This document shows, in pieces, positions 10,876 to 13,225 of a stretch of 64,000 nt of DNA (within the stretch, counting starts at the first letter, position 1; the number at the start of each line of letters is the position of its first letter). A program made the position numbers and the translations under genes. A model generated the notes under the pieces. The model had not been told where the DNA came from. It made no database searches and worked only from the letters and a program-made list of their open reading frames with translations. Location of the stretch: the NCBI GenBank assembly GCA_025800285.1, contig JAOXRX010000037.1, positions 52,651 to 116,650 of the forward strand, given 5' to 3'. The DNA is from Alphaproteobacteria bacterium. Lineage in GTDB: Bacteria; Pseudomonadota; Alphaproteobacteria; JAOXRX01.

Positions 10876-10966
10876 GGAGAGGTGGCTGAGTGGCTGAAAG
10901 CGCGCCCCTGCTAAGGGTGTATAGGGCAACCCCCTATCGAGGGTTCGAATCCCTCTCTCTCCGCCA
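10876..10966 (+). tRNA. tRNA-Ser (anticodon GCU), class II, with encoded CCA
   Basis: Acceptor GGAGAGG / TCTCTCC with a G-U pair at position 7-66. Anticodon stem-loop CGCCC-CTGCTAA-GGGTG. Long variable arm. T arm GAGGG-TTCGAAT-CCCTC. Discriminator G followed by CCA. Confidence 0.95.
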
Positions 10967-11153: not shown

Positions 11154-11440
11154 TCCCTCTCTTTACATAATATTTTTCAATTTATATTCGATGAATTAGG
11201 AATAGATAAAATAGCGAAGGAAGTTAATAAACATTTCTCAAATCAAGATATAGACATCATTGTCATAGATCCATGGAGAAATATCTACGAACAAGGATTG
11301 TCAGGAAAAAGCTCTGTCGATCCAAATGCTGATATTATAGCTTTTTTCAAAAGCCGTATTGAAAGTTTGCGAGAAAAAACAAATCCGAATGCTGGAATTG
11401 TGATAGCTCACCATACAAATAAGAACCAAGAATTAGAACA
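11154..11440 (+). pseudogene. Remnant of a RepA/AAA_25-type (RecA-fold) plasmid or phage replication ATPase
   Basis: The frame is open from 11154 without an upstream ATG. The translation ...IDIIVIDPWRNIYEQG...ADIIAFFKSRIESLREKTNPNAGIVIAHHTNK matches the Walker-B strand and the downstream 'vvlvHHtsK' block of RepA-like ATPases. There is no Walker A, and the frame decays into hydrophobic junk by 11501. Confidence 0.5.
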
Positions 11441-11514
11441 CAAAATATTATTAATATATATATTTGTTTTTTCATGGTTGTATTATTACGACCTTTTATA
11501 ATTTAAAATTCTAT

Positions 11515-11895
11515 TCATAACGAAAGTTTGTAATTAATATATATGCTAAAAGACAATATAAAATTGTAATACATAAAGTATATTATAGCCATGCAAAAAT
11601 AATAACCAATACATATGAAGCGACTTTTTAGTTTATTCTTAATATCTAAAACATTATTTTTTGTTTTCCAAAATATAAAGGAATACAAAAAAACAATCAA
11701 AAATATCATAAGTAAAGAAAAATAAACATTAGGGCAATCCCCTTTTATACATACATATTTGTTATAATAATCTTCGTTAAATATAGAAATCATGTAATTT
11801 TTTATGGATATTATACTAATTGTTATAAAACCGAAAAGCCCTAGTATAAAAATTATGCTTGGTATATTATTTGCAATTTTTCTAAATTTATTCAT
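11515..11895 (-). CDS. Small 3-TM membrane protein: candidate immunity protein or holin-like partner of the upstream enzyme
   Basis: 126 aa consisting almost only of hydrophobic helices. It lies 38 nt downstream of the Tlde1-like gene on the same strand. No family recognised. Confidence 0.55.
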   Translation of the reverse strand: MNKFRKIANNIPSIIFILGLFGFITISIISIKNYMISIFNEDYYNKYVCIKGDCPNVYFSLLMIFLIVFLYSFIFWKTKNNVLDIKNKLKSRFICIGYYFCMAIIYFMYYNFILSFSIYINYKLSL

Positions 11896-11933
11896 AATAA
11901 TAATTGTTTAACATATAGGCTTATATAATGCAA

Positions 11934-12557
11934 TTATTTTTTATATTGAACTATTAAATCAATAGTTCCTATTTCTGATATTGATCTAAATTCTTCTAAA
12001 AAACTTTTTATTTCAGATGTTAGATCTATGCATCCTATAGAACCAGGATATGTACCTCCATGGATAGAAAACCCACTTCTTCCTTTTGTATCAGTTCCCT
12101 TTTTGGGATCAAGCCATACTCTTCCATCTCCCCATGACTTTTCCCCTCCCGGAAAAGTTCCACCATAAAATATACCTTTAAATTTATCCCAATCACTTCT
12201 ATTATCAGTATACTGAATATCAGGTCTTACTTTATATTCTCCTTCAGGAATTGGACCTTTATTTTTTTTATCAGTATCTTCAGGATGTTGATATCCTGGT
12301 TTACCAGAAACACCATTCCAAGATTTAATAACCTCTTCCGCCCAAATGAGTTTTAAAATTTTGCCATTAAATAATAAATAAGGTTTTCCTTCTCTTTGAT
12401 ATATTTTCTTTAAATGGCATCTACAATTTGGATGTATAGGTAGTTTAGGAGCATCTTGCATTTTATCAAACCTTTTTCCTTGATGTTCTTTGCATTTATC
12501 ACAAATATTGTCTCCTTCGTTTTGATAAACCCAATCATAAATTTCATATTGTTGCAT
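11934..12557 (-). CDS. MuF-type Cys/His knuckle fused to a Tlde1/DUF2778-like (L,D-transpeptidase-fold) peptidoglycan-acting domain
   Basis: Residues 19-47 read CDKC...PIHPNCRC, the terminal motif of Phage_Mu_F/SPP1 gp7. Next come LLFNGKILKL...SWNGVSGKPGY, GPIPEGEYKV and GRSGFSIHGGTYPGSIGCIDL. This is the DUF2778/Tlde1 pattern, with a conserved His and the S-x-G-C catalytic Cys. Confidence 0.7.
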   Translation of the reverse strand: MQQYEIYDWVYQNEGDNICDKCKEHQGKRFDKMQDAPKLPIHPNCRCHLKKIYQREGKPYLLFNGKILKLIWAEEVIKSWNGVSGKPGYQHPEDTDKKNKGPIPEGEYKVRPDIQYTDNRSDWDKFKGIFYGGTFPGGEKSWGDGRVWLDPKKGTDTKGRSGFSIHGGTYPGSIGCIDLTSEIKSFLEEFRSISEIGTIDLIVQYKK

Positions 12558-13129
12558 TATTTTTCTCCTTTTCTTGAGATTGGTAAATTATTATTTACTT
12601 CTGTTAATTTTTTATCTAAATTAATTTTCTTTTTCCCCCAGCAGTATTCAGCATAAACATTGTTAAAAGCTCCATCCTTAATAGCTCTTTTAATTTCTAA
12701 CAAAGGATAAAAAGAGCAAATTTTTTCTAAAAAAGATTTAGTTTTATTACCTAAAATTCCATCCTCTTTTAGAGCTATGATTTCTGTTATTTGATGTTCT
12801 TTTTTATATCCTGTGAGAATATTTAATCCTCTTTGCAAATCTTTTAAAGCTTGTTCTTTTCCTACTCTCTTTGAATGAGTCTGCAGAAATTCATTTAATT
12901 CAGATATTTTCTCTTTAGTTGAAGAGGGTTTTATTACTTTATTCTCTTTTATTGCTACCACAGGAGGTTCTTCTTCAATTACTTGCTTTTTTAGTTCTGG
13001 TTTTTTAGCGACTTTCTTTATAGGCCTTTCTTCAATACCATATTCTCTTTTTAAAAAGGATTTAATCTCTTGCTCAAAAAGGTGTTGTTTATAAGCCTTT
13101 TTAATATTTTCATAATTAAAATTTATCAT
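12557..13129 (-). CDS. Hypothetical protein with a Lys/Glu-rich linker and a PG_binding_1-like segment
   Basis: 190 aa. ALKDLQRGLNILTGYKK...LKEDGILGNKTKSFLEKI resembles the peptidoglycan-binding three-helix repeat (LQ..L..lGY...DG.fG..T..a...fq). Its stop overlaps the next start by 1 nt. Confidence 0.55.
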   Translation of the reverse strand: MINFNYENIKKAYKQHLFEQEIKSFLKREYGIEERPIKKVAKKPELKKQVIEEEPPVVAIKENKVIKPSSTKEKISELNEFLQTHSKRVGKEQALKDLQRGLNILTGYKKEHQITEIIALKEDGILGNKTKSFLEKICSFYPLLEIKRAIKDGAFNNVYAEYCWGKKKINLDKKLTEVNNNLPISRKGEK

Positions 13130-13141
13130 TATATTTGCTCC

Positions 13142-13170
13142 AATAAAAAAGCCCTGTCTTGCGACAGAGC
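13142..13170 (-). terminator. Terminator-like hairpin plus U-run in the leader of the cassette (possible attenuator or insulator)
   Basis: On the minus strand, GCtCTGTC-gcaa-GACAGGGC is followed by TTTTTTATT and then the SD GGAG 8 nt before the ATG at 13129. Confidence 0.4.
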
Positions 13171-13196
13171 ATAGGTATTTCTTTTTCTAATTACCT

Positions 13197-13225
13197 TCTA
13201 TAGGACATTATTCCTAACTTGTCAA
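13197..13225 (-). promoter_or_regulatory. Candidate promoter for the cassette, TTGACA-17-TATAGA on the minus strand
   Basis: The reverse complement of 13220-13225 is TTGACA, and that of 13197-13202 is TATAGA. The spacer is 17 nt. Confidence 0.3.

What the first reader, a model, noticed from the sequence alone, without database searches (positions are those of the whole stretch)
11515..13225. Orphan cassette beside tRNA-Ser: PG-binding-like protein, MuF-knuckle::Tlde1/DUF2778-like enzyme and a 3-TM protein
Seen in the sequence:
- Three same-strand (-) genes are tightly linked: 12557..13129, 11934..12557 (whose start overlaps the upstream stop by 1 nt) and 11515..11895 (38-nt gap).
- The middle 207-aa protein opens with CDKC...PIHPNCRC (residues 19-47). 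This is the Cys/His knuckle that terminates Phage_Mu_F / SPP1 gp7 head-morphogenesis proteins.
- It then carries LLFNGKILKL..SWNGVSGKPGY, GPIPEGEYKV and GRSGFSIHGGTYPGSIGCIDL. This is the DUF2778/Tlde1 pattern, an L,D-transpeptidase-like fold with a conserved His and an S-x-G-C Cys.
- The upstream protein has a PG_binding_1-like stretch (LQRGLNILTGY...EDGILGNKTKSFLEK).
- The downstream protein is made only of TM helices.

Established knowledge: MuF N-termini carry polymorphic toxins in temperate phages. Tlde1 is a T6SS-delivered periplasmic peptidoglycan toxin paired with an immunity protein.

Inference: this is either a minimal toxin/immunity module with an unknown delivery route or a relic endolysin-plus-holin lysis cassette. 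What is unusual is that the MuF part is reduced to the knuckle alone, fused directly to a Tlde1-like domain. A separate PG-binding partner accompanies it, and no T6SS, phage structural or secretion genes are in view.
Basis: partly seen in the sequence, partly recalled or inferred. Interest (0 to 1): 0.8.

Follow-up and report, generated by a model that had tools for sequence, protein, structure and literature searches.

The report
Phage-knuckle cell-wall toxin–immunity cassette
Next to a tRNA gene this bacterium carries a small three-gene cassette: a cell-wall-binding helper, a cell-wall-cutting toxin tagged with a zinc "knuckle" borrowed from a phage head protein, and a membrane antidote. It belongs to a widespread but barely described family of swappable toxin cassettes whose delivery route is still unknown.

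Summary
Three co-directional genes lie at 12557-13129, 11934-12557 (1-nt TAATG overlap) and 11515-11895.

- **Middle protein:** a Tlde1 L,D-peptidase. It passes Pfam's cut-off, its AF2 model matches Salmonella Tlde1a best, and His166/Cys176 have Tlde1's spacing. It is preceded only by the last ~50 residues of a phage MuF head protein (CxxC…HPNCRC).
- **Upstream protein:** its C-terminal domain is PG_binding_3-like.
- **Downstream protein:** a 3-TM protein with one syntenic homologue.

Comparative loci settle the reading as a polymorphic toxin–immunity cassette, not a lysis cassette.
- The upstream family is followed by a knuckle protein in 9 of 9 split loci and is fused to the knuckle or a canonical MuF end in 7 proteins.
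- The knuckle carries interchangeable envelope toxins (Tlde1, GH24 lysozyme, prok-SAA lipocone), each with its own membrane partner.
- RHS-Tlde1 toxins have the same kind of small multi-TM partner.
- In one metagenomic locus a knuckle-Tlde1 gene sits right after a phage portal and has an orphan toxin module.
- Related cassettes are 2.3-2.6 kb islets without an integrase, flanked by att-like repeats at tRNA 3' ends.

Delivery is unresolved. I rate it a new variant of a known kind, of moderate-to-high interest.

The parts
12557..13129 (-). Partner protein (190 aa). Conserved N-terminal helix (res ~6-30), disordered K/E/P-rich linker (res 35-67), C-terminal helical domain.
   Evidence: ORF. Family alignment A1. 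AF2 model with pLDDT 68 overall and ~80-90 for most of residues 71-181. Two paralogues in the same MAG, OIF36_04105 and OIF36_04700. 75 cluster representatives in the deep profile search.
12587..12919 (-). PG_binding_3-like domain of the partner protein (res 71-181; 'VGKEQALKDLQRGLNILTGY…EDGILGNKT').
11934..12557 (-). Toxin (207 aa): MuF-type zinc knuckle fused to a Tlde1 L,D-peptidase domain. No signal peptide or TM segment.
   Evidence: An identical protein is in NCBI as 'MAG: DUF2778 domain-containing protein [Alphaproteobacteria bacterium]'.
12396..12548 (-). MuF C-terminal knuckle (res 4-54; C19, C22, H42, C45, C47).
   Evidence: Pfam Phage_Mu_F positions 64-111 of 112, 17.2 bits. TIGR01641. 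PHROG head-morphogenesis families. Phage BG3P MuF C-terminus. Knuckle alignment across 14 proteins. BFVD structural matches.
11943..12380 (-). Tlde1 (DUF2778) L,D-transpeptidase-fold domain (res 60-205). Catalytic H166 is the codon at 12060-12062 and C176 the codon at 12030-12032.
   Evidence: Pfam above cut-off. H166, S173, G175, C176 and D178 are invariant in 120 homologues. Foldseek top hits are Tlde1a 7uo3, 7uo8 and 7uma, E ~2e-8. Profile hit to Tlde1a at E 1.3e-9, with IH…GC aligned to Tlde1a's IH…HGC. Tlde1 H121/C131 are catalytic.
11515..11895 (-). Candidate immunity protein (126 aa, 3 TM). By the positive-inside rule, the loop between TM1 and TM2 ('NEDYYNKYVCIKGDCPN') would face the periplasm.
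   Evidence: TM segments. Homologous to the 124-aa gene that follows P0002, the toxin's closest homologue: phmmer E 7e-7, 33% identity over 123 aa. A small multi-TM gene follows 58 of 73 Tlde1 loci with room downstream. No holin or other family hit.
10876..10966 (+). tRNA-Ser(GCT). Its 3' end faces the 3' end of the cassette, which is the presumed integration site of the islet.
   Evidence: L012 has the same tRNA in the same convergent orientation. tRNA 3' ends also abut the cassettes of L009, L013 and L014.
11163..11501 (+). Probable remnant of a mobile-element ATPase gene (AAA_25/RepA-like C-terminal part) between the tRNA and the cassette.
   Evidence: Frame translation '…DIIVIDPWRNIYEQG…IVIAHHTNK'. 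Weak Pfam AAA_25 hit, E 0.0095, to profile positions 135-195 of 195. Suggestive only.

Best explanation
This is a three-gene polymorphic toxin–immunity cassette of the phage-MuF lineage, carried on a small decayed islet at the 3' end of tRNA-Ser.

**The toxin.** The 207-aa protein is a Tlde1-type L,D-carboxypeptidase/transpeptidase that damages peptidoglycan stem peptides from the periplasmic side. The family, fold and catalytic residues are shown. The activity is inferred from Salmonella Tlde1.

**The address module.** The toxin's N-terminal MuF zinc knuckle and the translationally coupled 190-aa PG_binding_3-like protein together form the conserved trafficking or anchoring unit of the family. 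In other genomes this unit is one polypeptide, and the toxin domain is exchanged behind it: Tlde1, GH24 lysozyme, prok-SAA lipocone and others. The co-occurrence and the fusions are shown. Physical interaction is inferred.

**The antidote.** The 126-aa 3-TM protein is the cognate immunity protein. It would neutralise toxin arriving in the periplasm through its Cys-containing outer loop. This is inferred from its position, its co-variation with the toxin, and analogy.

**Delivery.** Neither the toxin nor the partner has an export signal. The most likely route is the one implied by the knuckle's origin: incorporation into a phage or phage-like capsid next to the portal, then ejection into the target's periplasm, where the PG-binding module holds it. 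This is an inference. It is supported only by one relative sitting in the MuF position of a phage head module. No capsid genes are in this window.
For: **Toxin identity.**
- Pfam Tlde1_dom above cut-off.
- 154 homologues, with H166, S173, G175, C176 and D178 invariant among the best 120.
- AF2 pLDDT 88. Tlde1a is the best PDB match, and a profile hits it at E 1e-9 with the catalytic motif aligned.
- Tlde1 is toxic only in the periplasm, and H121/C131 are essential.

**Knuckle is the MuF end.**

**Partner and knuckle form one unit.**
- A knuckle gene follows the partner gene directly in 9 of 9 split loci: the window, L009, L010, L011-L014, L103 and L104.
- They are fused in P0138, P0155, P0179 and P0183. 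The partner domain is fused to a canonical MuF end in P0129, P0188 and P0199.
- P0138, P0188 and P0199 pass the Phage_Mu_F cut-off.

**Polymorphism.** The same knuckle is followed by Tlde1 in the window, Phage_lysozyme at E 3e-23 in L010, and SAA at 31-77 bits (L011 just under the 30.8-bit cut-off, the others above it) in L009, L011, L013, P0138 and P0179. The MAG has three paralogous partner genes. One of the other two loci was read, and its payload differs.

**Immunity.**
- 58 of 73 Tlde1 loci, and 21 of 22 knuckle-Tlde1 loci, have a small multi-TM gene directly downstream. These include the RHS-Tlde1 toxins of L048 and L050.
- The window's 3-TM protein is homologous to the one next to its toxin's closest homologue.
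- SAA cassettes instead carry multi-TM proteins with a 4-Cys domain. That domain matches the immunity domain described for prok-SAA toxins.

**Phage link.** L047 reads: terminase fragment, portal (Head-tail_con, E 5e-88), knuckle-PG_binding_1-Tlde1, multi-TM, then an orphan module that repeats the knuckle tail.

**Mobility.** att-like direct repeats containing tRNA 3' ends flank the cassettes of L012, L013 and L014.
Against: - No experiment supports toxicity, immunity or complex formation.
- No phage, GTA, T6SS or other secretion genes were recognised in the 64-kb window. That rests on my reading of N-terminal sequences, not on a profile scan.
- No relative of the partner family was found in 2.9 million viral contigs or in 50,697 phage genomes.
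- The knuckle is only about 45% of the Pfam MuF model and scores below its cut-off here. Its role in real MuF proteins is unknown, so capsid docking is conjecture.
- The window's immunity candidate has just one detectable homologue. It is not demonstrably related to the other small-TM families.
- The known Tlde1 immunity protein is a soluble periplasmic DUF2195 protein with a Sec signal, not a membrane protein.
- No att repeat survives around the window's own cassette.
Confidence: 0.7

Rival explanations
1. Lysis cassette. The 207-aa protein is a cytoplasmic endolysin, the 3-TM protein is a class-I-like holin that releases it, and the PG-binding protein is a separately encoded cell-wall-binding subunit. 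The whole would be left over from a prophage, or used for programmed lysis or holin-dependent secretion.
For: - Neither enzyme nor partner has a signal peptide, and a ~100-130 aa 3-TM protein sits adjacent.
- Tlde1-like folds occur in phage proteins, including one annotated 'Endolysin' (Nodularia phage) and a tape-measure protein.
- The partner's structural neighbours are GH108/PG_binding_3 muramidases of the SagA/Sen1395 type. From my own knowledge, not checked here, enzymes of that family assist protein secretion through the wall.
Against: - RHS-Tlde1 toxins, which are not endolysins, are followed by the same kind of small multi-TM gene.
- The downstream protein changes with the enzymatic domain: 3-TM for Tlde1, 4-Cys multi-TM for SAA, Sel1 plus multi-TM for GH24.
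- No holin family is hit in Pfam, NCBIfam or PHROGs.
- In the phage locus L047 the gene sits in the head module after the portal, not in a lysis module, and it has an orphan alternative toxin module.
- One genome carries three partner-family loci, and the two that were read differ in payload.
Confidence: 0.08
2. Stranded relic. The cassette descends from a phage-borne MuF toxin locus and can no longer be delivered. It persists because the immunity gene protects against related toxins from neighbours, or because the pair behaves as an addiction module.
For: - No capsid or secretion genes in the window.
- A decayed AAA_25-like gene remnant lies between the tRNA and the cassette.
- No att repeat is left.
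- In L001-L003 a related toxin gene is split by an in-frame TAA.
Against: - All three ORFs are intact, with invariant catalytic residues.
- The split partner-plus-knuckle arrangement with tight coupling is conserved in 9 loci from different phyla. That argues for selection on the toxin arm as well.
- The genome keeps three partner-family genes.
Confidence: 0.14
3. Housekeeping or defensive wall enzyme. The cassette remodels the cell's own peptidoglycan by L,D-carboxypeptidase trimming, with a PG-binding helper and a membrane regulator. Alternatively it triggers abortive lysis on phage infection.
For: L,D-transpeptidase-fold enzymes are common housekeeping enzymes, and YkuD/Ldt proteins are the next-best structural matches. 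The window around the cassette is housekeeping.
Against: - No signal peptide on an enzyme whose substrate is periplasmic.
- Best matches are the toxin clade Tlde1, not the Ldts.
- The payload behind the same knuckle is variable.
- The cassette lies on variable islets at tRNA genes with att-like repeats.
- No PADLOC defence-family hit.
Confidence: 0.05

Closest known systems
MuF polymorphic toxins of temperate phages (Zhang et al. 2012, PMC3482391; Jamet et al. 2017, PMC5576092)
   Same: The N-terminal element is homologous to the MuF/SPP1 gp7 head protein. It is followed by a variable C-terminal toxin and a small downstream ORF under 150 aa, the presumed immunity gene. One relative (L047) sits right after terminase and portal.
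   Different: - Only the last ~50 residues of the MuF domain are present.
- The rest is replaced by a PG_binding_3-like domain, encoded separately here. hhalign shows no relation to the MuF body.
- The toxins target the envelope from the periplasm rather than cytoplasmic targets. A term search of Jamet 2017 found neither 'peptidoglycan' nor 'DUF2778'.
- The loci are mostly outside prophages.
Tlde1/Tldi1 (Tae5/Tai5) T6SS effector-immunity pairs of Salmonella (bioRxiv 10.1101/2020.02.18.954545; PMC9638812)
   Same: Same Pfam family, same fold, same His…(S/T)xGC motif with a 10-residue spacing, and bicistronic with a protective gene.
   Different: - No T6SS genes nearby.
- The toxin carries a MuF knuckle, an architecture not listed in that work, which reports solo and Rhs forms.
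- The immunity candidate is a 3-TM membrane protein, not a Sec-exported DUF2195 protein.
- About 22% identity to Tlde1a.
prok-SAA Lipocone polymorphic toxins with four-cysteine immunity domain (Burroughs et al. 2025, bioRxiv 10.1101/2025.01.14.632903)
   Same: Sister cassettes of the same family (L009, L011-L015, L104) carry exactly this toxin and immunity type behind the same knuckle. The preprint lists MuF among the delivery-associated domains of Lipocone polymorphic toxins, which include prok-SAA.
   Different: The window's payload is Tlde1, not a lipocone. The passages I read of that preprint do not describe the upstream PG_binding_3-like partner, the reduction of MuF to the knuckle, or the tRNA-linked islets.
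GH108/PG_binding_3 muramidases (Brucella SagA 7DNP, Salmonella Sen1395 6V3Z, NMB1012 2IKB)
   Different: No GH108 catalytic domain or EGGY motif in the 190-aa protein (my reading of the sequence). It is a binding module only. Similarity is modest and Pfam does not detect it directly.
Phage holin-endolysin lysis cassettes
   Same: A signal-less wall enzyme next to a small 3-TM protein.
   Different: See the rival explanation. The partner co-varies with the enzyme domain, the same partner type follows RHS toxins, there are no holin hits, and the phage relative is in the head module.

Membership tests
Tlde1 / DUF2778 (PF10908) L,D-peptidase toxins | Profile match above the curated cut-off | tested here: met
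   32.7 bits against 30.1, E 1.1e-7. The family profile hits Tlde1a at E 1.3e-9.
Tlde1 / DUF2778 (PF10908) L,D-peptidase toxins | Catalytic His and Cys in an H…(S/T)xGC motif, spaced more closely than in YkuD (H121/C131 in Tlde1) | tested here: met
   H166 and C176 are 10 residues apart, invariant in 120 homologues, and aligned to Tlde1a's motif. Literature.
Tlde1 / DUF2778 (PF10908) L,D-peptidase toxins | L,D-transpeptidase fold closest to Tlde1a | tested here: met
   Foldseek: 7uo3, 7uo8 and 7uma rank first (E ~2e-8, TM 0.62), ahead of YkuD and LdtMt2.
Tlde1 / DUF2778 (PF10908) L,D-peptidase toxins | Delivery by T6SS (genes near T6SS structural genes, or Rhs/PAAR fusion) | tested here: not met
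   No T6SS genes recognised in the 64-kb window (read by eye). The N-terminus is a MuF knuckle, not Rhs or PAAR. This feature defines the effector class, not the domain family.
Tlde1 / DUF2778 (PF10908) L,D-peptidase toxins | L,D-carboxypeptidase / exchange activity on peptidoglycan, and periplasmic toxicity | not testable with these tools
   Needs expression and muropeptide analysis.
MuF polymorphic toxins | Complete MuF (Phage_Mu_F / SPP1 gp7) N-terminal domain | tested here: not met
   Only profile positions 64-111 of 112 are matched, at 17.2 bits against 29.6. The same truncation is seen in all relatives. The upstream protein is not the missing part (hhalign probability 0.9%).
MuF polymorphic toxins | Encoded in a (pro)phage head module next to terminase and portal | tested here: not met
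   Not in this window. Met in the relative L047. The partner family is absent from the viral collections.
MuF polymorphic toxins | Variable C-terminal toxin domain followed by a small (<150 aa) ORF | tested here: met
   Tlde1, GH24, SAA and unknown domains follow the same knuckle. A 126-aa ORF lies 38 nt downstream.
Polymorphic toxin systems in general | Immunity gene co-varies with the toxin domain; orphan toxin modules share the 5' junction | tested here: met
   Co-variation. An orphan module repeating the knuckle tail is present in L047. No orphan module in the window itself.
PG_binding_3 / PG_binding_1 (partner protein) | Profile match to PF09374 or PF01471 | tested here: inconclusive
Holins | Match to a holin family; lethal hole formation | tested here: not met
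   No holin hit in Pfam, NCBIfam or PHROGs. Hole formation is not testable here.

The most novel reading that the evidence does not exclude
The cassettes are minimal 'toxin satellites'. They are 2-3 kb units without integrase or capsid genes, and they exploit a helper phage or GTA twice.
- **Integration:** in trans at tRNA 3' ends, which would explain the att-like repeats around them.
- **Delivery:** the ~50-residue MuF knuckle would act as a portable portal or capsid docking tag. It would load an envelope toxin into someone else's virion, and the PG-binding partner would hold the ejected toxin in the victim's periplasm.

If true, the MuF knuckle would be the smallest known capsid-targeting signal for protein cargo.
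Probability: 0.15. Interest if true: 0.8.

Novelty: new variant of a known kind. Interest (0 to 1): 0.58.

Why it matters
**Tlde1 beyond T6SS.** Tlde1-type peptidoglycan toxins have been treated mainly as T6SS effectors. Here, and in 24 of 83 sampled loci, the domain is attached to a phage MuF knuckle. The same knuckle carries lysozyme and lipocone payloads, so a whole class of periplasm-acting toxins seems to use a delivery route that is not understood.

**Testable new pieces.**
- A ~50-residue module that may be sufficient for trafficking.
- A previously undescribed PG_binding_3-like partner family (75 cluster representatives) that is always coupled or fused to it.
- A new family of small multi-TM immunity candidates for Tlde1.

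**Mobility.** The tiny att-flanked islets at tRNA genes in Alphaproteobacteria, Gastranaerophilales and other bins raise the question of how cassettes without an integrase move.

**Practical use.** If the knuckle does load cargo into capsids, it would be useful for engineering phage-delivered proteins.

Tried and rejected
- **Split-MuF idea.** I tested whether the 190-aa protein is the missing N-terminal body of MuF. Pfam on the concatenated proteins did not extend the MuF match, and hhalign against a true MuF gave probability 0.9%. Rejected.
- **Frameshifted pseudogene.** I considered that the two genes are one broken gene. Rejected, because the split with tight coupling recurs in 9 loci and the window junction has its own Shine-Dalgarno.
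- **Homologues of the 3-TM protein.** The word-seeded search found only the protein itself. BLASTP against the L001 partner was not significant. An iterative HMM did not join it to the other small-TM families. Only the L099 partner is a demonstrable homologue.
- **PDB sequence searches.** Searches with the 207-aa protein and the A1 profile found nothing useful.
- **att repeat of the tRNA-Ser 3' end.** None around the window cassette.
- **Partner family in viral collections.** None found.
- **PADLOC defence families.** None.
- **L101.** This 'Bacteriophage sp.' contig with a Tlde1 match looks like ordinary bacterial DNA and gave no phage context.
- **Rfam on the islet.** Only the tRNA.
- **Third paralogous locus of the MAG (P0125).** Could not be retrieved.
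- **First literature query.** It was swamped by 'muffin' papers.
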